From positions 1,470,001 through 1,502,000 of the forward strand of contig NC_009925.1 of the NCBI RefSeq assembly GCF_000018105.1: 32,000 bases of DNA, written 5' to 3'. The notes under the pieces are model-generated. The model was not told where the DNA came from and searched no databases. It was given only the letters and a program-made list of their open reading frames with translations. The position numbers and the translations under genes were made by a program. The stretch is from Acaryochloris marina MBIC11017. GTDB lineage: Bacteria; Cyanobacteriota; Cyanobacteriia; Thermosynechococcales; Thermosynechococcaceae. Below are positions 1-29,657 of the stretch, piece by piece (the first letter of the stretch is position 1; each line of letters opens with the position of its first letter).

Positions 1-624
1 TTCTTGGTTCTCTTCTAGCTTGAGACGAAGGTAGCGAATGTAAACTTCGATGATATTGGAGTCTCCCATAAAGTCGTAGCCCCAGACTTGTTCCAGGATG
101 CGATCGCGGGTCAATACCTGGCGAGGATGCATCATCAAATACACCAGCAAATCAAACTCCTTGGCCGTTAGCTCAATCGAGCGTTCACCGCGGAAGATCT
201 CACGGGTGCGCTGGTTAAGGGTCAAGTTGGAGAATTCTAGGACATCGGGATCTTCTTCCTGGGTGCGCCGCAAGTGGGCTCGCACCCTAGCTAACAGCTC
301 TTCGATGCTAAAGGGCTTCACCATATAGTCATCCGCCCCGGCATCTAGCCCTTCGACCCGATCGCTAATTTCATCTTTGGCGGTCAATAAAATAACGGGA
401 ACTTTATCCCCGGTTGCCCGCAGACGTCGACAGACTTCAACGCCAGAGAATCCTGGCAGCATCCAGTCCAGGAGAATTAAATCCGGTTGAGACTCGCGAG
501 CAGCGGTGAGTCCCCCGATGCCATCATTGGCCACGGTCACCTGATACCCCTCATGGGTCAGTTCCATTTCAACAAATTGAGCCAGTTTGGTTTCGTCTTC
601 AACCAGGAGAATATGTGCTGTCAT
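1..624 (-). CDS. OmpR/PhoB-family response regulator (C-terminus runs off the window edge)
   Basis: The minus-strand frame is open from ATG 624-622 to base 1. It is absent from the ORF track because no stop is reached. The translation starts MTAHILLVEDETKLAQFVEMELTHEGYQVTVANDG...DLILLDWMLPGFSG...LLTAKD...MVKPF (receiver domain). It continues with LTAKEFDLLVYLMMHPRQVLTRDRILEQVWGYDF (winged helix). The ATG overlaps the stop of the upstream kinase gene (ATGA at 621-624), suggesting translational coupling. Confidence 0.9.
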   Translation of the reverse strand, partial: MTAHILLVEDETKLAQFVEMELTHEGYQVTVANDGIGGLTAARESQPDLILLDWMLPGFSGVEVCRRLRATGDKVPVILLTAKDEISDRVEGLDAGADDYMVKPFSIEELLARVRAHLRRTQEEDPDVLEFSNLTLNQRTREIFRGERSIELTAKEFDLLVYLMMHPRQVLTRDRILEQVWGYDFMGDSNIIEVYIRYLRLKLEENQE

Positions 625-2135
625 ATTTTTGCTTCAGGAGATATGGGTAACGTCACGGTGAATGTACTGCCTTCACCCTCGGCAGACAGGACACTGACTT
701 GTCCTCCCATGCCTTCGGTAAAGGTCTTGACTAGGGAGAGGCCCAGACCAACGCCACCGGTACAGCGGGCTCGGGCTTCATCTAATCGATAAAAACGTTC
801 AAAAATGCGGGACTGTTGTTTGAGAGGGATACCATCGCCGCGATCGCACACATGAATCAAAGCTGAGTCCTCTCGTTGTTCTAGCTTCACTGTGACAGGT
901 TCCGTCGTTGCAGAATATTTAATCGCATTTTCCACCAAGTTTACCAATACCTGTTGGAGACGCTTCGCATCAGCAAAAACGGGAATTAGAGGAGACTCAA
1001 ACTCCAAATCAATCTGACGCTGATTAAACTTGTCTGCCATATTAACGACTTCTACCGCCACATCGTTCAGAATCAACGTCTCCAGATGATAAGGCATATA
1101 CCCATCATCCGCTCGGGCTAAACACAGTAAATCTTGCAATAACTGAATCGTCAGGTTCGCCTCAGCCGTAGAGATTTCCAAGGCTTCCCGCTGCATTTCA
1201 GTCAGGTTATCGCCCCGCCGTTGAATACTTTGCAAATAGCCTCGGACAATCGTGAGAGGCGTTCGCAGTTCATGGGAGACATTGCCCACAAACTCTCGCT
1301 GTCGCTCCGTAGCATGCTGCTGCTCATGCCAAGCCTCAGATAGGCGCTCCAACATCCGATTGAAAGTCTCTGTCAATTCTTGGATTTCACTGGGCGCATT
1401 ATCAATTTCTACCTTTGTCTTCCCTAAATCATCCGGCGAAATGGCTTTTGTCATTAAGTCCATTTGGCTTAAGGAGCGTAAGGAACGATGCACATACCAA
1501 GTTAAAGCCAAAGTGATCAAGACAACAGCAACTGAACTAGCCAAAGCCAGAGATTGCACACTAGCGATAAACTGGCGTTGATCCTCAGTAATATCTTGAG
1601 CCACAAATAACGTTCCCAAAGACTGGTTCCTCACCATTAAAGGGCTATGGCAGGCGACAAAATCTCGCCCTTGAATGTGATAGACCTTGGGGACAATGCT
1701 GTCTCGGAAAGCCGTTGCCAACGAACCAGGGCCTTCAAATCGTTGCCACGTTGGCCCCGACATATTGGCAGACATCGCCACCAAATTTTCTTGGGAATCG
1801 TTGACCCACAGCAGTAAATTACGTCCAGACCGATTGTTAATCGCTTTTTCAATACTCTTTTGCAGCGGGAACATCTCATCTTGTTGATAAAGCACCACAT
1901 CATCCGCAATGCGATCGCTAATATCAACAATTTTTTGCTTATGACTAGAAATCAAAATCCGCTGCATCTTCCAGCTCGTCCATACAGCGACACTGGTTAA
2001 CCCCACAGCAATCAGTCCTGCAATACTAGCCGTCAGCCGAAACTGGAGTGACTTAGGATTCACAGCTTGGCGCAACTGAGGAGAGACGTTTCGCCATCCC
2101 TTACCCAGGGAAGATTTGATCGGAAGTTCACCCAC
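621..2135 (-). CDS. Sensor histidine kinase with two TM helices flanking a ~130-aa periplasmic domain, then HAMP, HisKA and HATPase
   Basis: 504-aa ORF with a GTG start at 2135. Hydrophobic segments are LTASIAGLIAVGLTSVAVWTSW and FIASVQSLALASSVAVVLITLALTWYV. H-box [15 protein letters not shown]-box LVNLVENAIKYS, G1 DRGDGIP, G2 GGVGLGLSLV. The architecture matches CusS/CopS/NrsS-type envelope sensors. Confidence 0.9.
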   Translation of the reverse strand: MGELPIKSSLGKGWRNVSPQLRQAVNPKSLQFRLTASIAGLIAVGLTSVAVWTSWKMQRILISSHKQKIVDISDRIADDVVLYQQDEMFPLQKSIEKAINNRSGRNLLLWVNDSQENLVAMSANMSGPTWQRFEGPGSLATAFRDSIVPKVYHIQGRDFVACHSPLMVRNQSLGTLFVAQDITEDQRQFIASVQSLALASSVAVVLITLALTWYVHRSLRSLSQMDLMTKAISPDDLGKTKVEIDNAPSEIQELTETFNRMLERLSEAWHEQQHATERQREFVGNVSHELRTPLTIVRGYLQSIQRRGDNLTEMQREALEISTAEANLTIQLLQDLLCLARADDGYMPYHLETLILNDVAVEVVNMADKFNQRQIDLEFESPLIPVFADAKRLQQVLVNLVENAIKYSATTEPVTVKLEQREDSALIHVCDRGDGIPLKQQSRIFERFYRLDEARARCTGGVGLGLSLVKTFTEGMGGQVSVLSAEGEGSTFTVTLPISPEAKI

Positions 2136-2147
2136 GCTAGCCGTCCC

Positions 2148-2759
2148 TCAAAATAACTTAGCGGTATGGGAAACTGAATCAAAGCTGTATCGGTTCTGAT
2201 AATCCGTCAGTCCGTAAAGATTAAACGTCACCGTCGGTTCATCCCCTAATGCCTCTACACAGTGAATGGCTTCAGGCATTAGGCTAATCGTATCGCCAGG
2301 ATTTAAAGTCAACTCACCTACGGACTCAATTTTGTGGGGATAGTCATCAGATGGGGTCCGCTGCCAAAACGTATTTTTCTCTTGGCCACTCACCAGCGCT
2401 ACAACCCCCCACGTTGCATGATTATGAATCTGGGACGTTTGCCCCGGTGCCCAAACCACCGTTTGTACCGTTAGGGGAAAATTCGGTTCATCGTAGAGCA
2501 TGGTGACCGACCAGCCTTTTTCAGGGTCAGGAGGCTGAATCTCAAACTGCAACCAGGCCGAGTCCGTTAACAGTTCTCTAACGAGGGGATGAATGGCCTG
2601 TAAACGCTCCTGATCTTGGTCAGTCGCGGCTAAAATATCTTCAACTTCTGTCAAAAACCGATACAGTCTATAGGTTTGCGCTCTCTTCTGTGGCAAAGAC
2701 TGATGGGACCAAGGTTGCACTTGGCCATCATCCTTTACGAACCAATCTTGGTCTACCAT
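2148..2759 (-). CDS. Cupin-fold protein, cysteine-dioxygenase type I-like (3-His metal site, COG5553-like)
   Basis: 203-aa ORF with an ATG start, ending 12 nt upstream of the kinase gene. It carries cupin motifs SQIHNHATWGVVALVSGQEKNTFW and PEAIHCVEALG (H-x-H plus a distal H). The family assignment comes from motif recognition only. Confidence 0.65.
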   Translation of the reverse strand: MVDQDWFVKDDGQVQPWSHQSLPQKRAQTYRLYRFLTEVEDILAATDQDQERLQAIHPLVRELLTDSAWLQFEIQPPDPEKGWSVTMLYDEPNFPLTVQTVVWAPGQTSQIHNHATWGVVALVSGQEKNTFWQRTPSDDYPHKIESVGELTLNPGDTISLMPEAIHCVEALGDEPTVTFNLYGLTDYQNRYSFDSVSHTAKLF

Positions 2760-2929
2760 CTTGACGTTCTACAAAGTGGACTCAAATCTATTGAACACTG
2801 ACTGGATAGTCAGGGGTAAGGTTCAGGAGACAACTGAAGACGTAGTTCCCCAGCTTTAGCGTAATCGCATAGGATTGAGTTTGTCCTTGATTGAAGTCAC
2901 CATCACTCACTTTAGGTAAAGTCACTGGG

Positions 2930-3199
2930 TTAATCTCTTCCCTCCACAAATAGAAACCCAGGCTTAAAACTGGATTTGCGTTTTTCCAAAGTTTCGCTGC
3001 TCAGTTTCTTACAATCATCTGCCTGTGTTGTTTTGAACCTGAAATTTTCAGATTCTGTCTCCAAAAATTGACAGCCAGTTTGAGTCAATTTAATCACTTC
3101 TACAGGTTGATCTACATCGCTGGTTTGAGTGTTTGAATCACAGCCTTCCACAAGGACAAATGCGAACAAACTTTCATACCGAATGAGTCTAGATTGCAT
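2930..3199 (-). CDS. Small hypothetical lipoprotein-like ORF, possibly the 5' part of a frameshifted cupredoxin-like (EfeO N-terminal-like) gene extending to 2788
   Basis: 89-aa ORF with N-terminus MQSRLIRYESLFAFVLVEGC (hydrophobic segment plus Cys). The +1 frame stays open downstream to a stop at 2788-2790 and encodes ...REEINPVTLPKVSDGDFNQGQTQSYAITLKLGNYVFSCLLNLTPDYPVSVQ. See the finding on 2788-3199. Confidence 0.4.
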   Translation of the reverse strand: MQSRLIRYESLFAFVLVEGCDSNTQTSDVDQPVEVIKLTQTGCQFLETESENFRFKTTQADDCKKLSSETLEKRKSSFKPGFLFVEGRD

Positions 3200-3559
3200 A
3201 GAGTTTCAGCTCATCAAGGGGTCTCAAGCAAAGCCCTATCTCAAGTTTAAAGTTGTACAGATGATATCGCCCTGACCCCTAAATAAATTTTTCCTGAGAA
3301 GTATGTAGAATCAATCCAAACAGGCTTTAGGGTCACTGTTTAAAATCCTTCAATCCTGCCATAAATCACTTTCTTAACCAATCCCAATCTCCTTCTCAGC
3401 AAAATTTCAGATTGGTCAGTCTCAATCAAGAATGTCTGCCTGAACCTTCTGAAAAATTTGCCAAAAGAACTTCCTATTTCAGCCAAATTTCCATTTAATG
3501 CAACAATTAATTAGGCAATTTTAGTTGCACCAAAGATTAATCCGTCATGGAGAGTATCA

Positions 3560-3946
3560 ATGAAAGTTAAATATATGGCAATGGTTGCCACCGTTTCTCT
3601 ACTCAGTGTTGGTGGCCTGGTGATTGGTTGCACTAATCCCTGTGCTGCTCAAGATAAGAACGGAACCGAAACAACTGAAACAGCAGATCCTTGTGCTGCA
3701 AAGTCAGGCGATCCTTGCGCTGCAAAGTCAGGCGATCCTTGCGCTGCAAAAGATGACCCCTGTGCTGCCAAAGGAGATCCTTGCGCCGCTAAAGAAGATC
3801 CCTGTGCTGCCAAGGCAGATCCTTGCGCCGCTAAAGAAGATCCCTGTGCTGCCAAGGCAGATCCTTGCGCCGCTAAAGAAGATCCCTGTGCTGCCAAGGC
3901 AGATCCTTGCGCTGCCAAATCAGAAGACCCCTGTGCAGGATCCTAA
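3560..3946 (+). CDS. Cys-rich heptad-repeat lipoprotein (11x DPCAAK, plus NPCAAQ and DPCAG)
   Basis: 128-aa ORF. GGAGAG lies 6 nt upstream of the ATG. The signal peptide MKVKYMAMVATVSLLSVGGLVIGC has a lipobox-like VIGC. The remainder is a repeat array with 14 Cys in total. This is the only one of three overlapping repeat-region ORFs that has a start context and a signal peptide. Confidence 0.7.
   Translation: MKVKYMAMVATVSLLSVGGLVIGCTNPCAAQDKNGTETTETADPCAAKSGDPCAAKSGDPCAAKDDPCAAKGDPCAAKEDPCAAKADPCAAKEDPCAAKADPCAAKEDPCAAKADPCAAKSEDPCAGS
3686..3940 (+). repeat. In-frame tandem repeat array: 24-bp units x2, 21-bp units, and three perfect 42-bp copies (3776-3817, 3818-3859, 3860-3901)
   Basis: Direct reading: gatccttgcgccgctaaagaagatccctgtgctgccaaggca occurs three times back to back. 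The two 21-bp halves encode the same DPCAAK but use different third-codon positions in five of the six codons. Confidence 0.95.
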
Positions 3947-4137
3947 TCCTTTTCCCCATAGCCTTCGTTAAGGCTGTGCTCAATTACAACTACAGATAAC
4001 GATAGAATGCTGGAGGTAGATACTATGGTGTCTACCTCTGTTCTATCTGCTGTTTTGCGAGAATTTGATCCATCACCATTGCCAACCAGAGATCCAAGCA
4101 AATGCACTGGGACAGATAGTTAGCAAAACCGTTTTCA

Positions 4138-4599
4138 ATGATTAATCAGATGAATCCAACCACTATGTCTTTACGTGTCAAGTTTGCCTGTTTTTGTATG
4201 GCGTTTGCGTTGCTCGTCAGCAGTTTCCTCAGCCCACCTGCCCTTGCAGTAACCCAAATTGAACTTAAGGATCTCACCTATGAAGAATGCTCTGCTGAAG
4301 TTGGCAAGGGTACCGTTACCAGTGGAGGACCAATCATGCGATTGGCCAACTGTTTTATCATTTCGGGGACAACGGTCAACAAATCCGGCAAACCTGTGAT
4401 GGATGCAGACGTATTTGGCCGTATCTTTGATGCAAACAACAATCCAGCCATGGAAAACCGGGGACGGTTGGGAGCCATTGATATCGTTGAGCCTGGAGAA
4501 GGCACTTTTGAGCTAAGGGTGAGTGTCCCCGATGCCCTAGAAACCCCCTTAAAACTTGAGCAGTTCAAGGCAAGCGGTTTTACAGCCAAAGTCCGTTAA
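4138..4599 (+). CDS. Secreted (Sec-signal) hypothetical protein
   Basis: 153-aa ORF. The N-terminus ...MSLRVKFACFCMAFALLVSSFLSPPALA|VTQ resembles a cleavable signal peptide. The true start may be the ATG at 4150 or 4165. A strong terminator follows. I recognise no family. Confidence 0.6.
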   Translation: MINQMNPTTMSLRVKFACFCMAFALLVSSFLSPPALAVTQIELKDLTYEECSAEVGKGTVTSGGPIMRLANCFIISGTTVNKSGKPVMDADVFGRIFDANNNPAMENRGRLGAIDIVEPGEGTFELRVSVPDALETPLKLEQFKASGFTAKVR

Positions 4600-4675: not shown

Positions 4676-5619
4676 AGACCTCTTGCATATTTGGATTTGC
4701 GATATGGTATTGAGCCTGATGTTCTTTCTCTTCAGTACCATATTACGAAACAGCCCAACAGCTGAGTGCAAAGGACTTTAAGCGACGAACTGGAGTCTAC
4801 AAACAAACCTTTAAACGCATGCTCCACGCATGGCATACCCATCATCTAGGTCGCTCAAATGCAGGGCGTCCTCCAAAGTTGTGTCGCCCTGATCAACTAT
4901 TGGTGGCTCTTCAATATTGGCGGGAATATCGGACTTATTTCCATATTGCTGGAGATTGGGAAGTCTCTGAATCAACTGTCTGCCGTATTGTCCACCAGGT
5001 CGAAACCGCTCTGATGAACTCAGGACTCTTTCGCTTACCTGGTCAGAAATCTCTGCTACAAGGGTTTGAGCGACCGGATGTCGTTGTGATGGATGTGACT
5101 GAAACGCCCATTGAACGTCCCCAGAAAAGACAAAAAGCGTATTATTCAGGGAAAAAAAGAGACATACCCTCAAATGCCAGATTATCGCTGACCGCAACAC
5201 TTTAGAGATTATCTGTCTGAGCTTTGGCCCAGGCCGTCGGCATGATTTTCAGATCTTCAAGGTTTCAGGTATCCATATCCATCCAAATACCGAGAGTCTG
5301 CAAGATAGCGGATATCAAGGGATTGCAGCCTACCACGCCAACAGCTATGTTCCTTTCAAGAAGTCACAACACAGTGAACTGACTTCCCTGCAGCGAGAGT
5401 ATAACCGTGCTCTGAGTCAAGAACGAATGGGCATTGAACACATTAAATCGCAGCCTGAAGATTTTCAGAATTCTGTCGGAGCGCTACCGTAATCGTCGTC
5501 GTCGCTACACGCTGCGGTGTAACTTGATTGCAGCTCTCTATAACCATGAACTATCTTTGGCTGCTTAAGGGATGGAAAACAGCAATACCACATCGTCAAA
5601 TGAATATTGCAAGAGGTCT
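4676..5619 (+). mobile_element. IS5-family (Harbinger-like DDE_Tnp_4 type) insertion sequence, decayed
   Basis: Imperfect ~38-bp terminal inverted repeats: left agacctcttgcatatttgg..., right reverse complement agacctcttgcaatattca..., with the outer 12 bp identical. AAT flanks both ends (4673-4675 and 5620-5622), a possible 3-bp target duplication. The interior encodes a transposase split over three frames. Confidence 0.75.
4720..5567 (+). pseudogene. IS5-family DDE transposase, interrupted reading frame
   Basis: Frame 1 gives ...QLSAKDFKRRTGVYKQTFKRMLHAW...VVVMDVTETPIERPQKRQKAYYSGKK. After the A7 run (5152-5158) the -1 frame continues KKRHTLKCQIIADRNTLEIICLSFGPGRRHDFQIFK...SGYQGI...ERMGIEHI. 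A second shift near 5445 is needed to read NRSLKIFRILSERYRNRRRRYTLRCNLIAALYNHEL. There is no ATG at the head of the first frame. Confidence 0.7.
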
Positions 5620-28232: not shown

Positions 28233-29378
28233 TTATACCGCTACAGGCTCACATAATTTGTTGCGCAGATCAATCTCTGTTTGGGCCATGTTTGCGATCG
28301 CATCCTGCATCACAGACCGAATCGACTGCCCCTGTTGATGTTGTCTCAACCACTGTTGAGCCTCATTCCCTTGGTCCAAAATCTGGTGAATTGGCGACAG
28401 AAAACAGCTAAATCCTGATTGTTTCGCCGTCGGCCATACTTCGGTATACAGCTCTTCAATCCAGTCTCGGGCCAGAATTTTGCGGCCATCTTGCCAATGG
28501 GTCAATTCCGCATCCAAACTATGGGTAGCAGCAGCGATCTCATTGGCATCTGCTAGAGCAACCAGGTGTTCAGAATCAGTCTTGAAGTTGCTACCCACCA
28601 AAGGATCAAGCTGGGGATCATCGAGCAGCTGGAGGATTCGGGCTTCTAGCAACGCCGTAATCGCTAATAAATGGATGGGATGAGTGACGAGATCGCAAAT
28701 TCTCAACTCCAAGCGATTCAAATCATAGGGACGACGATTGCCGTTGGGGCGAACCGAACTCCACAAGTGGCGCACATTTTGCATCGTGCCCTGTAAGAGC
28801 TGTGACTCGGTCCAATCAATAAAATGCTGATGACTGGTAAACAGGGGCACCTGGGCTGGGGTTTTGGGGAAGACTGCCCAACGAGACGAATGATGGCCCG
28901 TCACCTGCTCCCCTAAAAAGGGAGAAGAGGCACTTAAGGCCAAAAATAGTGGGGCTTCCATCCGAACTAGGCGACATGCCTGGAAGAGCTGCTCAATGTC
29001 AGGAATACCAATATTGATATGAATACTGGCCGTCACAACACTCGTACCGTAGGTCTGCTCAATATAGGAATGGTATGGATTCTTGGGATCAGACCGATAA
29101 AAATGCTGATGATCTGACAGGGCCAGGGTACTGCCTGGAATCAGGGTGTAGTCTCCCAGGGTTCGCACATATTCGCGAAGCTGGAGACGAGGTTTGAGCA
29201 GATCACAAAGCAGAGGATCATAATGATGGGCTGGGGCAGTCGTATATTCGACATTACGACTGTCAGGTTCTCGAACAAACCCATCTAAATCGGCAACAAT
29301 TCGGTCGGACAGGCCAACAATCTCACCTGAGGGTTTCCCAGTATACAGTTCTACCTCGAACCCTTTAGAAAGCACCAT
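28233..29378 (-). CDS. gshA: Glutamate--cysteine ligase, cyanobacterial type
   Basis: 381 aa. The N-terminus MVLSKGFEVELYTG and the overall length match the cyanobacterial GshA family as I recall it. It ends 26 nt upstream of trmL on the same strand. Confidence 0.8.
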   Translation of the reverse strand: MVLSKGFEVELYTGKPSGEIVGLSDRIVADLDGFVREPDSRNVEYTTAPAHHYDPLLCDLLKPRLQLREYVRTLGDYTLIPGSTLALSDHQHFYRSDPKNPYHSYIEQTYGTSVVTASIHINIGIPDIEQLFQACRLVRMEAPLFLALSASSPFLGEQVTGHHSSRWAVFPKTPAQVPLFTSHQHFIDWTESQLLQGTMQNVRHLWSSVRPNGNRRPYDLNRLELRICDLVTHPIHLLAITALLEARILQLLDDPQLDPLVGSNFKTDSEHLVALADANEIAAATHSLDAELTHWQDGRKILARDWIEELYTEVWPTAKQSGFSCFLSPIHQILDQGNEAQQWLRQHQQGQSIRSVMQDAIANMAQTEIDLRNKLCEPVAV

Positions 29379-29657
29379 GCATATCCCTCGCTCTTGTCAA
29401 ACAGATTATAGACAGCAGATCTGAATAGACCCTTAGAAAGAGTTAGTAAATTTTATGAGGGCAAACCAAGGTTGAGTGCACACCTAAAAATCGAACACGA
29501 TCAATCAATAGGTGTACTGCTAGCAATGATGTCGCTCACTCGGCAGATCGTTGTTCACATTCTGACATATTTCGGTGCAGGTGTTGGGTAGAGTCCCTAC
29601 TCCCGCAGGCCTCCAGCCAAGCCAAAACAAGCATGAGGACCACAAATGCCAATCATT

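What the first reader, a model, noticed from the sequence alone, without database searches (positions are those of the whole stretch)
3560..3946. Lipoprotein whose mature part is a Cys-bearing heptad array (DPCAAKx), with recently amplified 42-bp units
**What the sequence shows.**
- After a lipobox signal peptide the protein reads NPCAAQ, a 12-residue linker (DKNGTETTETA), 11 copies of DPCAAK(x or xx), then DPCAGS.
- That places one Cys every 7-8 residues, always in the context Asp-Pro-Cys-Ala-Ala-Lys.
- At DNA level there are three perfect 42-bp copies (3776-3901).
- Within each copy the two heptads encode identical DPCAAK peptides, but with different third positions in five of six codons (cct tgc gcc gct aaa versus ccc tgt gct gcc aag).
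- The array is open in three frames (ORFs 3560, 3624 and 3649 minus).

**Inference.**
- The codon pattern points to long-term selection on the peptide, followed by recent unit amplification.
- Only the 3560 frame has an SD sequence, a start codon and a signal peptide.
- The Pro in every repeat argues against a coiled coil.
- A flexible, lipid-anchored poly-thiolate chain could act as an envelope metallothionein-like metal buffer (Cu(I), Zn or Cd), a thiol/redox scavenger, or a disulfide-crosslinking surface polymer.
- I do not recognise this repeat from any described family.
Basis: partly seen in the sequence, partly recalled or inferred. Interest (0 to 1): 0.8.

Follow-up and report, generated by a model that had tools for sequence, protein, structure and literature searches.

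The report
Lipid-anchored poly-cysteine repeat protein
This is a real gene for a small exported lipoprotein made of thirteen one-cysteine heptads; it belongs to a widespread but undescribed cyanobacterial repeat family that sits beside or is fused to envelope thiol-redox proteins, so it most likely works as a regenerable chain of thiols that captures soft metals or other thiol-reactive species outside the cytoplasm.

Summary
ORF 3560-3946(+) encodes a lipobox signal peptide, NPCAAQ, an 11-residue linker (not 12), 11 DPCAAK units and DPCAGS, with three perfect 42-bp units.

It is not an orphan. Hundreds of proteins carry the same x-[N/D]-P-C-A-[A/S/G]-K heptad, yet no Pfam or NCBIfam model and no paper describes it.

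The array occurs in these forms:
- alone, as here
- fused to a lipoprotein thioredoxin that is followed by a CcdA/DsbD gene
- fused to a YHS (seleno)domain, a DM13 domain or a SoxA/TsdA-type cytochrome c
- next to a DoxX gene

In 52 of 80 cyanobacterial loci it lies divergent from a thiol-dioxygenase-like cupin. That cupin often heads a cupin-histidine kinase-response regulator operon, as in this window. The shared promoter region carries a conserved OmpR-type direct repeat that tracks the presence of the kinase.

AlphaFold gives no fold. Orthologues differ in copy number, always in frame.

Best reading (inferred): a stress-inducible, lipid-anchored polythiol buffer or carrier, kept reduced by Trx-CcdA. 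Its cargo, soft metal versus oxidant or sulfane sulfur, is unresolved.

It is a new variant of a known kind and of moderate-to-high interest.

The parts
1..633 (-). OmpR-type response regulator (C-terminus cut by the window edge); last gene of the cupin-HK-RR operon
   Evidence: phmmer against the orthologous regulator of L001, E 7.7e-138. NCBIfam best hits are NblR, PhoB and the heavy-metal regulator TIGR01387, all below cut-off.
621..2135 (-). HAMP/HisKA/HATPase sensor histidine kinase with a periplasmic loop that carries one near-invariant Cys (FVAC, about residue 162)
   Evidence: Pfam. The best full-length NCBIfam match is the heavy-metal sensor kinase TIGR01386, 211 bits against a cut-off of 292.55. 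Alignment of 35 cupin-linked kinases.
2148..2759 (-). 203-aa cytoplasmic cupin, homologous to bacterial thiol dioxygenases (3-His iron site kept)
   Evidence: PDB profile search: 6xb9 E 2.5e-17, 8vni 1e-16, 3uss/4tlf 1.4e-16. It is 51-93% identical to the cupins beside other arrays.
2788..3199 (-). Two out-of-frame fragments of a 157-aa lipoprotein gene that is intact in orthologue L001 (frameshifted remnant)
   Evidence: tblastn: residues 1-80 in frame -3 and residues 100-157 in frame -1. The intact protein has a weak Cupredoxin_1 hit, E 0.0037, below cut-off.
3282..3298 (-). Degenerate copy (CTCAGGAAAAATTTATT) of the family-wide direct repeat TTCAGC-N5-TTCATC, pointing towards the cupin operon; candidate response-regulator site
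   Evidence: It lies in a block conserved among four orthologous loci.
3395..3411 (+). Second degenerate copy (CTCAGCAAAATTTCAGA), pointing towards the array gene, 149 bp before its ATG
   Evidence: It lies in a conserved block in alignment A2. Only 4 matches to the degenerate pattern occur in the 32-kb window, and 2 of them are here.
3549..3552 (+). Shine-Dalgarno GGAG, 7 nt before the ATG
   Evidence: Read directly from the sequence.
3560..3631 (+). Lipoprotein signal peptide MKVKYMAMVATVSLLSVGGLVIG|C (lipobox VIGC, Cys24)
   Evidence: MKVKY...GC is conserved in relatives. 125 of 182 family proteins match a lipobox-like pattern.
3635..3685 (+). First motif NPCAAQ plus the 11-residue Thr/Glu-rich linker
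   Evidence: 'GC(A/S)NPCAA' directly after the lipobox is conserved.
3686..3943 (+). Cys-heptad array: 11 x DPCAAK(x/xx) + DPCAGS
   Evidence: Family logo: x-[N .74/D .24]-P-C-A(.96)-[A/S/G]-K(.87), with a Cys spacing of 7 in 567 cases, 8 in 142 and 6 in 66.
3776..3901 (+). Three identical 42-bp double-heptad units (recent amplification)
   Evidence: The closest orthologues have 6-7 PC motifs against 13 here.
4011..4040 (+). 13-bp-stem hairpin after the stop codon (terminator-like, weak T tail)

Best explanation
**What it is.** The ORF is a genuine gene for a small lipoprotein.
- After signal peptidase II cleavage, Cys24 would be lipidated (inferred from the lipobox).
- That would tether a 104-residue, intrinsically disordered, acidic chain to a membrane face outside the cytoplasm: the periplasm or the thylakoid lumen.
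- The chain presents 13 cysteines, one per heptad, each in the context Asp-Pro-Cys-Ala-Ala-Lys.
- It is the stand-alone form of a repeat module (consensus A-N/D-P-C-A-A-K) that other proteins carry as an N- or C-terminal appendage on exported thiol-redox or metal domains.

**How it most likely works (inferred).**
- The thiols are the working groups.
- They capture thiol-reactive species: soft metal ions such as Cu(I), Cd, Hg or As(III) (my first choice), or else oxidants or sulfane sulfur.
- A lipoprotein thioredoxin fed by a CcdA/DsbD electron conduit returns them to the reduced state. That pair is encoded at the same locus in many relatives but not in this window.
- The protein would therefore act as a regenerable polythiol buffer or carrier for the cell envelope.

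**Regulation (inferred).** Expression is most likely driven by the divergently transcribed cupin-histidine kinase-response regulator operon, through an OmpR-type direct repeat in the shared intergenic region. The kinase's periplasmic domain has one near-invariant Cys, which suggests a thiol-reactive signal.

**Shown:** the gene, the family, the fusions, the neighbourhood, the cis-motif, the disorder prediction and the in-frame copy-number variation.
**Inferred:** lipidation, compartment, thiol state, cargo and regulation.
For: **Gene and family**
- 340 homologues at E<=0.01; they occur as stand-alone proteins of 70-120 aa or as fusions.
- An all-against-all profile search finds 450 50%-identity clusters at E<=1e-3, some of which are spurious eukaryotic repeats.
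- The P-C of the motif is invariant, with A/A/K after it.
- Stand-alone forms end in a conserved PCAG[S/K/Q], so they are not truncated fusions.

**Fusions**
- Array + thioredoxin (WCxxC) in 15 of 80 cupin loci, array + YHS (seleno)domain in 13, DM13 + array in 3, array alone in 25 (NF041384; PF10517 and PF04945).
- Array - SoxA/TsdA cytochrome c - array in other phyla: PF21342 at 33.8 and 37.6 bits (cut-off 27) in P0330 and P0327, and a sub-threshold 23.6 bits in P0328.

**Neighbourhood**
- The array-Trx gene is followed directly by a DsbD_TM/CcdA gene.
- The same Trx + DsbD_TM pair lies beside stand-alone arrays in Rhizomicrobium and in a high-GC stromatolite contig.
- An array gene is followed by DoxX/MauE in Leptolyngbya BL0902 (array, then DoxX, then cupin on one strand), in the stromatolite contig and, weakly, in PCC 7002.

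**Link to the cupin/TCS**
- 54 of 80 cupin loci have an array ORF within 5 kb, and 52 of these are upstream and divergent.
- All four stand-alone cyanobacterial arrays I looked up have RR-HK-cupin next door, including plasmid pAQ7 of PCC 7002.

**Cis-element**
- TTCAGCAAAAATTCATC is found exactly in 16 intergenic regions of several genera.
- A copy with at most 1 mismatch is present in 21 loci, and all 21 have the kinase. Of 52 loci without it, only 10 have the kinase.

**Metal-type clues**
- The kinase aligns end to end with the heavy-metal sensor kinase model, but below cut-off.
- NrsF/ECF sigma lies beside arrays. NrsF, ECF sigma and DoxX are the accessory genes of copper-chelating bufferin clusters (PMC12452194, PMC11626156).
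- ArsR, a mercuric-reductase-like gene and ArsM flank the operon on a Pseudanabaena plasmid.

**Structure.** Disorder: pLDDT 42.8.
Against: - There is no experimental datum for any member: no transcript, peptide, metal or thiol measurement. Papers on PCC 7002 and the supplementary files held here do not mention the locus.
- This window has no Trx, CcdA, DoxX, YHS or DM13 gene, so regeneration would have to come from elsewhere in the genome.
- The kinase and regulator assignments to heavy-metal families are below the curated cut-offs. The regulator scores higher against NblR and PhoB.
- The window's own copies of the direct repeat have 4 mismatches each.
- Several partners point to sulfur or electron transfer rather than metal: SoxA/TsdA-type cytochrome, C554-like multihaem cytochromes, DoxX and the thiol-dioxygenase-like cupin.
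- Isolated cysteines in an oxidising compartment may simply form disulfides.
- The chain has no His or Met ligands.
Confidence: 0.5

Rival explanations
1. **Sulfur-carrier or electron-relay arm.** The cysteines carry sulfane sulfur or thiosulfonate adducts, or shuttle electrons as thiol/disulfide couples. They would work like a multi-armed version of the SoxY GGCGG swinging arm: oxidised by cytochromes or DoxX and reset by Trx-CcdA, as SoxS/SoxV reset SoxY.
For: - Arrays flank a SoxA/TsdA-type cytochrome c domain: PF21342 above cut-off in P0327 and P0330, below it in P0328.
- A C554/MtrC-like multihaem cytochrome follows array genes in three unrelated contigs.
- The Trx + CcdA pairing is recurrent.
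- DoxX/MauE partners occur beside arrays.
- The cupin belongs to the thiol dioxygenase family.
- The cysteine is flanked by small residues, as in SoxY (established knowledge of the Sox system, not tested here).
- Many hosts are mat-forming genera.
Against: - No sox genes, SoxZ-like partner, SQR or rhodanese were seen in the cyanobacterial loci.
- The cytochrome partners are all outside cyanobacteria.
- A carrier needs one arm, not 13.
- The YHS fusions and the metal-type regulators fit less well.
Confidence: 0.2
2. **RiPP-like precursor.** The cysteines are enzymatically modified in the cytoplasm before export and the modified chain is the active species. This follows the logic of bufferins and oxazolins, with the mononuclear-iron thiol-dioxygenase-like cupin, or an unlinked enzyme, in place of MNIO/DUF2063.
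For: - It has the same overall design as Buf_EGKCG/oxazolin precursors: a Sec signal peptide plus a short repeat with one Cys each (PMC12452194).
- DoxX and NrsF/ECF sigma recur beside arrays.
- In Leptolyngbya BL0902 the order array-DoxX-cupin lies on one strand.
- The cupin keeps the 3-His iron site. In the HMMER alignment, however, the carboxylate-binding Arg/Gln position of CDO/MDO is a Val and the Ser-His-Tyr His is an Asn, so its substrate is probably not free cysteine or 3-mercaptopropionate (my reading).
Against: - No MNIO (DUF692) or DUF2063 gene appears in the window or in the loci whose genes carried Pfam calls.
- The cupin is co-transcribed with the kinase and regulator rather than with the array.
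- The cupin also occurs at loci with Trx-CcdA but no array, and at loci with neither.
- Fusion to a thioredoxin, with a CcdA partner, argues that the thiols stay thiols.
Confidence: 0.1
3. **Passive spacer or structural element.** The array is a flexible Ala/Pro/Lys-type stalk that holds domains away from the membrane. Alternatively it forms intermolecular disulfides that build a surface polymer.
For: - In the Trx and YHS fusions the array sits exactly between the lipid anchor and the domain.
- Its composition resembles Ala/Pro/Lys linkers.
- It is predicted to be disordered.
Against: - The P-C of the motif is invariant across the family proteins surveyed; a spacer does not need it.
- 25 of 80 loci encode the array with nothing to tether.
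- In DM13 and SoxA-type proteins the array is C-terminal or on both sides.
- The dedicated reductive partners argue against stable disulfides.
Confidence: 0.08
4. **Accessory sensor.** The lipoprotein reports the envelope's thiol or metal state to the adjacent histidine kinase, for instance through a mixed disulfide or a shared metal with the kinase's invariant periplasmic Cys. This would be analogous to NlpE or CpxP with CpxA.
For: - The kinase operon and the array are tightly and divergently linked.
- The kinase's sensor loop has one near-invariant Cys.
Against: - Many array loci have a cupin but no kinase, for example Coleofasciculus.
- Rapidly varying copy number is unusual for a specific signalling partner.
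- The array also occurs on enzymes.
Confidence: 0.07
5. **Not this gene.** The repeat is non-coding, or the antisense or +2-frame ORF is the real product.
For: - All three frames are open.
- RefSeq annotates the antisense ORF in three Picosynechococcus genomes.
Against: - Only the 3560 frame has an SD sequence, an ATG and a signal peptide.
- Only that frame is conserved from Acaryochloris to Picosynechococcus, and it continues into the Trx, YHS and DM13 domains.
- The synonymous-only differences between half-units are specific to this frame.
- PGAP itself calls the sense ORF in PCC 8807.
Confidence: 0.02

Closest known systems
Bufferins, especially the Buf_EGKCG/oxazolin precursors (MNIO-modified, copper-chelating RiPPs; PMC11626156, PMC12452194)
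   Same: - Exported through a Sec-type signal peptide, and some are lipoproteins.
- Short tandem motifs with one Cys each.
- DoxX and NrsF/ECF sigma genes recur nearby.
- A role in envelope metal stress.
   Different: - The motif differs (EGKCG against [N/D]PCAAK).
- No MNIO (DUF692) or DUF2063 gene was seen at the loci examined here.
- The partners here are Trx + CcdA and a thiol-dioxygenase-like cupin, which suggests the thiols stay unmodified.
- The family is mainly cyanobacterial.
Scs/TlpA-type envelope reducing pathways with their thiol clients (ScsB/ScsC, CcdA-TlpA, CueP in Salmonella; PMC3322552, PMC4546943)
   Same: - A membrane electron conduit of the DsbD/CcdA type plus an exported thioredoxin-fold protein keeps envelope cysteines reduced.
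- Such pathways are often under two-component control and linked to copper or oxidant stress.
   Different: Here the presumed client is a disordered repeat, sometimes fused in cis to the thioredoxin, rather than a folded copper protein or peroxiredoxin.
Metallothioneins and phytochelatins (SmtA/BmtA; (gamma-Glu-Cys)n-Gly)
   Same: - Small, Cys-rich polymers that bind metal through thiolates.
- Phytochelatins also present periodically spaced single thiols on a flexible chain.
   Different: - Metallothioneins are cytosolic, use CxC/CxxC clusters and fold around metal clusters.
- Phytochelatins are made enzymatically.
- This protein is ribosomal, exported and lipid-anchored, has one Cys per 7 residues, and has no Pfam metallothionein hit.
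SilE/PcoE periplasmic metal sponges controlled by CusS-like two-component systems
   Same: A small, disordered, exported protein encoded next to a sensor kinase-regulator pair that resembles the CusS/SilS type, and presumably induced by it.
   Different: SilE and PcoE use His/Met motifs and are not lipoproteins. This protein has neither His nor Met.
SoxY sulfur-carrier arm (GGCGG) with SoxAX, SoxS/SoxW and SoxV
   Same: - An exposed Cys flanked by small residues.
- Relatives carry SoxA/TsdA-type cytochrome domains.
- A Trx + CcdA-type reactivation pair is present.
   Different: There is no SoxY fold, no SoxZ and no sox operon, and there are many arms instead of one.

Membership tests
Bacterial lipoprotein (signal peptidase II substrate) | Positively charged n-region, hydrophobic h-region and a lipobox [LVI][ASTVI][GAS]C | tested here: met
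   MKVK / YMAMVATVSLLSVGGL / V-I-G-C24. The same layout is conserved in relatives, and 125 of 182 proteins match a lipobox-like pattern.
Bacterial lipoprotein (signal peptidase II substrate) | Diacylglyceryl modification and cleavage before the Cys | not testable with these tools
   This needs mass spectrometry or globomycin sensitivity.
Undescribed [N/D]PCA[A/S/G]K heptad-array family (defined here) | At least 3 tandem units with invariant Pro-Cys, Ala at +1, Lys at +3 and a 7-residue period, behind a signal peptide | tested here: met
   The window protein has 13 PC motifs. Logo and spacing were derived from 182 proteins; homologues reach E 1e-37.
Undescribed [N/D]PCA[A/S/G]K heptad-array family (defined here) | Encoded divergent from a thiol-dioxygenase-like cupin (with or without a kinase-regulator pair) | tested here: met
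   Window 2148-2759(-) against 3560(+). The same layout holds in L001-L005 and in 52 of 80 cupin loci.
Bufferin / Buf_EGKCG-oxazolin RiPP precursors | Signal peptide plus conserved Cys motifs | tested here: met
   Both are present, but the motif differs from EGKCG and from DUF2282. There is no Pfam hit.
Bufferin / Buf_EGKCG-oxazolin RiPP precursors | Adjacent MNIO (DUF692) and DUF2063 genes | tested here: not met
   None appears among the window ORFs or in the Pfam-annotated neighbourhoods of 12 relatives. The 80 cupin loci were screened only for cupin, HK, RR, Trx, CcdA, YHS and DM13, so the test is incomplete there.
Bufferin / Buf_EGKCG-oxazolin RiPP precursors | Cys converted to thiooxazole, and copper chelation | not testable with these tools
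   This needs MS and metal-binding assays.
Bacterial metallothionein (SmtA/BmtA) | Match to the metallothionein models; clustered CxC/CxxC with His; cytosolic | tested here: not met
   No Pfam or NCBIfam hit. The protein has single cysteines 7-8 residues apart, no His and an export signal.
Thioredoxin / TlpA family | Thioredoxin fold with a WCxxC active site | tested here: not met
   This is absent from the window protein, which ends at DPCAGS. It is present in fused relatives such as P0005, P0006, P0034 and P0045.
SoxY sulfur carrier | SoxY fold with a C-terminal GGCGG, a SoxZ partner and a sox operon | tested here: not met
   No family hit, no fold, and no sox genes in the window or in the related loci examined.
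Thiol dioxygenase (CDO/MDO) - for the neighbouring cupin | Cupin with a 3-His Fe(II) site | tested here: met
   HNH...H is invariant in alignment A1 and aligns to the H-x-H...H of 6xb9.
Thiol dioxygenase (CDO/MDO) - for the neighbouring cupin | Arg (CDO) or Gln (MDO) substrate-carboxylate residue and the Ser-His-Tyr triad | tested here: inconclusive
   In the HMMER alignment to 6xb9 the 'YQQY' stretch aligns with 'WSVT', and 'SIHVYG' aligns with 'SFNLYG'. This is my reading, made without a structural superposition.

The most novel reading that the evidence does not exclude
The array is the substrate or cargo arm of an undescribed envelope thiol system, in one of two forms:
- **(a)** A bufferin-like, signal-peptide-bearing precursor whose cysteines are oxidatively modified by the conserved thiol-dioxygenase-like cupin before export. 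That would be a mononuclear-iron counterpart of the MNIO enzymes, acting on internal peptide cysteines.
- **(b)** A ribosomally made, multi-armed SoxY-like carrier that hands sulfane sulfur or electrons to SoxA-type or multihaem cytochromes and is reset by Trx-CcdA.

Either form would define a new class of exported repeat protein with its own two-component regulon and operator (TTCAGC-N5-TTCATC).
Probability: 0.15. Interest if true: 0.85.

Novelty: new variant of a known kind. Interest (0 to 1): 0.62.

Why it matters
**Why the biology matters**
- Cyanobacteria must move copper and other thiophilic metals through the periplasm and lumen, and they must survive oxidants and sulfide there. Few envelope thiol systems are known in them beyond CcdA/HCF164-type cytochrome maturation.
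- This analysis points to a conserved, apparently uncharacterised module found in many genera and on plasmids of the model strain PCC 7002.
- The module combines a promiscuous one-Cys heptad array, Trx-CcdA, DoxX, a divergent thiol-dioxygenase-like cupin, and a kinase-regulator pair with a recognisable operator.

**What it makes testable**
- It offers a tractable knockout and induction experiment in PCC 7002.
- It supplies a candidate regulator binding site.
- It suggests a possible ribosomal analogue of phytochelatins or bufferins.

**Annotation problem.** Automatic pipelines call the antisense frame of this repeat in three of four Picosynechococcus genomes.

Tried and rejected
**Database and literature searches that found nothing**
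- Pfam and NCBIfam scans of the protein gave nothing, only a GltG match at E 9.2.
- Full-text searches for PCAAK, DPCAAK or NPCAAK and for the 17-bp motif found no relevant paper.
- PCC 7002 locus tags and supplementary tables of three transcriptome papers had no mention, or the files are not held.
- More general keyword searches gave nothing specific.

**Structure and fold**
- AlphaFold2 with a 25-sequence alignment gave no fold, so I did not run a fold search.
- PDB sequence searches with the fused Trx and YHS domains returned only generic thioredoxins and nothing informative, respectively.

**Neighbours tested as possible partners**
- The downstream 153-aa gene (4138-4599) is unrelated to the PCC 7002 downstream gene. 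It is a widely conserved cyanobacterial orphan that is adjacent only in this clade, so I rejected it as part of the system.
- I looked for Trx, CcdA, YHS, DM13 or MNIO genes elsewhere in the window and found none.

**Weak or misleading evidence, flagged as such**
- Heavy-metal assignment of the kinase and regulator rests on sub-threshold scores only.
- Some long hits of the profile search are eukaryotic low-complexity proteins and were discarded.
- Contigs for the SoxA-type fusions were too short for much context.
Full report
**1. The observation**

- ORF 3560-3946(+) has a GGAG 7 nt before its ATG.
- The N-terminus is MKVKYMAMVATVSLLSVGGLVIGC, with lipobox V-I-G-C24.
- It continues with NPCAAQ and the linker DKNGTETTETA, which is 11 residues and not 12.
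- Eleven DPCAAK(x/xx) units and a final DPCAGS follow.
- The 42-bp units at 3776, 3818 and 3860 are identical.
- The two heptads inside each unit encode the same DPCAAK with different third bases in five of six codons.
- Tandem Repeats Finder scores the 42-bp array at 317.
- Two other frames are open across the array.
- The mature chain uses only A, D, P, C, K, E, T, G, S, N and Q. It holds 13 Cys in 104 residues and has a net charge of about -8.

**2. It is a real gene and a member of a large, unnamed family**

No curated family or paper covers it.
- Pfam and NCBIfam give no match.
- The full-text library has no paper with the motif.

Homologues are nevertheless numerous.
- A homologue search returns 340 proteins at E<=0.01.
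- A profile search of 1.84 billion representatives returns 450 clusters at E<=1e-3 and 92 at E<=1e-10. A few of these are spurious eukaryotic repeats.
- In 182 family proteins the unit is x-[N 74%/D 24%]-P-C-A(96%)-[A/S/G]-K(87%). Cys-to-Cys spacing is 7 in 567 cases, 8 in 142 and 6 in 66. The all-Asp units of the window are therefore a minority variant.
- The signal peptide 'MKVKYL...GC(A/S)NPCAA' and the C-terminal 'PCAG[S/K/Q]' are conserved in stand-alone members. These proteins are therefore not truncated fusions.

The window comes from an Acaryochloris-like cyanobacterium; its cupin is 89% identical to that of an Acaryochloris MAG. Syntenic orthologues carry 6-7 PC motifs against 13 here. 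Picosynechococcus strains also differ by in-frame rearrangements.

AlphaFold2 finds no structure: pLDDT is 42.8 and the mature part is all coil.

**3. Architectures**

The array is a mobile module. It occurs:
- alone;
- between the lipid anchor and a thioredoxin domain with WCxxC;
- before a YHS (seleno)protein domain (NF041384);
- after a DM13 domain;
- outside cyanobacteria, on both sides of a SoxA/TsdA-type cytochrome c domain (PF21342 above the gathering score in two of three proteins).

Because it occurs alone and at either end of domains, it is more than a tether.

**4. Neighbourhood**

*Stand-alone arrays.* All four stand-alone cyanobacterial arrays I looked up are divergent from an operon of a ~200-aa cupin, a HAMP histidine kinase and an OmpR-type regulator. 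These are two Acaryochloris-like contigs, a 6-Mb genome, and plasmid pAQ7 of PCC 7002. The window has the same layout: regulator 1-633, kinase 621-2135, cupin 2148-2759, all on the minus strand.

Of the 80 loci kept:
- 54 have an array ORF within 5 kb, and 52 of these are upstream and divergent;
- 25 arrays are alone, 15 are fused to Trx, 13 to YHS and 3 to DM13;
- 62 loci have an array, a Trx or a CcdA gene;
- 32 have the kinase directly downstream of the cupin.

*The Trx + CcdA pair.* Array-Trx genes are followed by a DsbD_TM/CcdA gene. The same Trx + DsbD_TM pair sits beside stand-alone arrays in Rhizomicrobium and in a high-GC stromatolite contig.

*DoxX/MauE.* Such a gene follows the array in Leptolyngbya BL0902, where array, DoxX and cupin lie on one strand. 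The same is true of the stromatolite contig and, weakly, of PCC 7002.

*Other recurring neighbours.*
- NrsF/ECF sigma.
- C554-like multihaem cytochromes.
- Ergothioneine-type genes.
- On a Pseudanabaena plasmid, ArsR, a mercuric-reductase-like gene and ArsM.

The window itself has no Trx, CcdA, DoxX or MNIO gene.

**5. The cupin and the kinase**

*Cupin.* It is a homologue of bacterial thiol dioxygenases: 6xb9 E 2.5e-17, mercaptosuccinate dioxygenase 8vni, and MDO 3uss/4tlf. It keeps the 3-His site. In the printed alignment the Arg/Gln substrate position aligns with Val, and the His of the Ser-His-Tyr triad aligns with Asn. This is my reading of that alignment.

*Kinase.* It aligns end to end with the heavy-metal sensor kinase model at 211 bits, below the cut-off of 292.55.

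*Regulator.* It scores best against NblR and PhoB, also below cut-off. A metal assignment is therefore only a hint.

*Sensor loop.* Across 35 cupin-linked kinases, the periplasmic loop has one near-invariant Cys.

**6. A shared cis-element**

- The intergenic regions between the cupin and the divergent array or Trx gene are enriched for TTCAGCAAAAATTCATC. This is a direct repeat with an 11-bp period, as used by OmpR/PhoB-type regulators.
- It occurs exactly in 16 regions from several genera, usually 60-125 bp before the cupin start.
- A copy with at most 1 mismatch is present in 21 judgeable loci, and all 21 have the kinase. Of 52 loci without it, only 10 have the kinase.
- The window has two 4-mismatch versions, at 3282-3298(-) and 3395-3411(+). 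Both lie in blocks conserved among orthologues.
- I infer autoregulation of the operon and co-regulation of the divergent gene. Neither is shown.

**7. Interpretation**

*What the data show.* This is an exported, probably lipid-anchored, disordered polythiol. Its family is tied, by fusion and by neighbourhood across phyla, to extracytoplasmic thiol-reducing machinery and other redox or metal domains. In cyanobacteria it is also tied to a specific cupin/two-component module.

*Reading I commit to (confidence about 0.5).* It is a stress-inducible, regenerable thiol buffer or carrier.

*Cargo.* My first choice is soft metal ions. The supporting clues are:
- the YHS fusions;
- the sub-threshold resemblance of the kinase to CusS-type kinases;
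- the NrsF/ECF and DoxX neighbours, which are also the accessory genes of copper-chelating bufferin clusters (PMC11626156, PMC12452194);
- the metal(loid) genes nearby.

The sulfur and electron-transfer clues are nearly as strong: the SoxA-type and multihaem cytochromes, Trx-CcdA (as in SoxS/SoxV), DoxX and the thiol-dioxygenase-like cupin. I give that rival 0.2.

*Other rivals.*
- A bufferin-like modification of the cysteines, possibly by the cupin, is not excluded (0.1).
- A mere linker or polymer (0.08) is disfavoured by the invariant P-C motif, by the stand-alone forms and by the reductive partners.
- A kinase co-sensor role (0.07) remains possible.
- A non-coding or antisense reading (0.02) remains possible but unlikely.

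**8. Comparison and novelty**

The closest described systems are:
- bufferins and oxazolins, which share the design but whose MNIO/DUF2063 genes are absent from the loci examined here;
- Scs/TlpA-CcdA envelope reducing pathways with thiol clients;
- metallothioneins and phytochelatins;
- SilE/PcoE;
- the SoxY arm.

The protein fails the defining tests for membership in each (see the membership table). It plausibly works like a blend of the first three. I rate it a new variant of a known kind: an undescribed family and locus within the known class of exported Cys-based metal or redox buffers.

**9. Limits**

- There are no expression, proteomic or biochemical data for any member.
- The compartment, lipidation, thiol state, cargo and regulation are all inferred.
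- The 80 cupin loci were screened for only a fixed set of partner proteins.

Noticed in passing
L009 7219-7515(-), L096 3219-3515(-), L098 3220-3525(-) versus L097 3208-3483(+): RefSeq annotates the antisense ORF of the array gene as 'hypothetical protein' in Picosynechococcus PCC 7002, 73109 and 7117, but the sense ORF in PCC 8807. The sense frame is the conserved one, so the three antisense calls are probably mis-annotations. Note that the PLSDB gene table is incomplete.
   Followed up: partly
window 2788-3199 (-): Two out-of-frame fragments of a 157-aa lipoprotein gene that is intact in orthologue L001 (7168-7641, -). The intact protein has a weak, sub-threshold Cupredoxin_1 hit. The gene also looks fragmented in L002 and L011.
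   Followed up: partly
window 3282-3298 (-) and 3395-3411 (+); related loci L016, L036, L039, L041, L043, L071, L081, L083 and others: The conserved 17-bp direct repeat TTCAGCAAAAATTCATC lies in the cupin/array intergenic region, and its presence tracks the presence of the kinase-regulator pair (21/21 against 10/52). I found it in no paper.
   Followed up: yes
window 621-2135 (-), about residue 162 of the kinase: The periplasmic loop of the cupin-linked histidine kinases has a single near-invariant cysteine (FVAC in the window).
   Followed up: partly
window 4138-4599 (+): This 153-aa secreted protein has no Pfam family but 524 cyanobacterial homologues at about 55-60% identity. It is adjacent to the array only in the Acaryochloris clade, and a hairpin at 4011-4040 separates it from the array gene.
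   Followed up: partly
window 4819-5205 (+): A transposase fragment (HTH_Tnp_4) is inserted between the 153-aa gene and the YggT gene, relative to the orthologous contigs L001 and L002.
   Followed up: no
L005 532-2855 (PCC 7002 egtD/egtB); L092 8610-10497; L082 3992-4921: Ergothioneine-type genes (FGE-sulfatase/EgtB-like plus Methyltransf_33) lie near array loci in PCC 7002 and in a Tectimicrobiota MAG. An FGE-sulfatase protein is divergent from the cupin in a Halomicronema MAG.
   Followed up: no
P0327, P0328, P0330 (L099-L101); L091 4355-5665; L092 7331-8581: Outside cyanobacteria the array flanks a SoxA/TsdA-type cytochrome c domain (above the Pfam cut-off in P0327 and P0330). It is also repeatedly followed by a ~420-aa C554/MtrC-like multihaem cytochrome. 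NrsF lies directly upstream of one such gene.
   Followed up: partly
L095 (Pseudanabaena galeata plasmid pPg_02): The cupin-HK-RR operon is flanked by ArsR/SmtB on one side and by TVP38, a mercuric-reductase-like gene, ArsM and ArsS on the other. A TVP38 gene also follows the locus in PCC 7002.
   Followed up: no
L021 5727-6134; L079 5735-6217: In cupin loci without an array, the gene directly after the cupin is DoxX-like (a Nostocales genome) or of the ArsC family (Nostoc sp. C117).
   Followed up: no
window 28236-29396 (-): A family-2 glutamate-cysteine ligase (GCS2) gene lies 24 kb from the array. No link is established.
   Followed up: no
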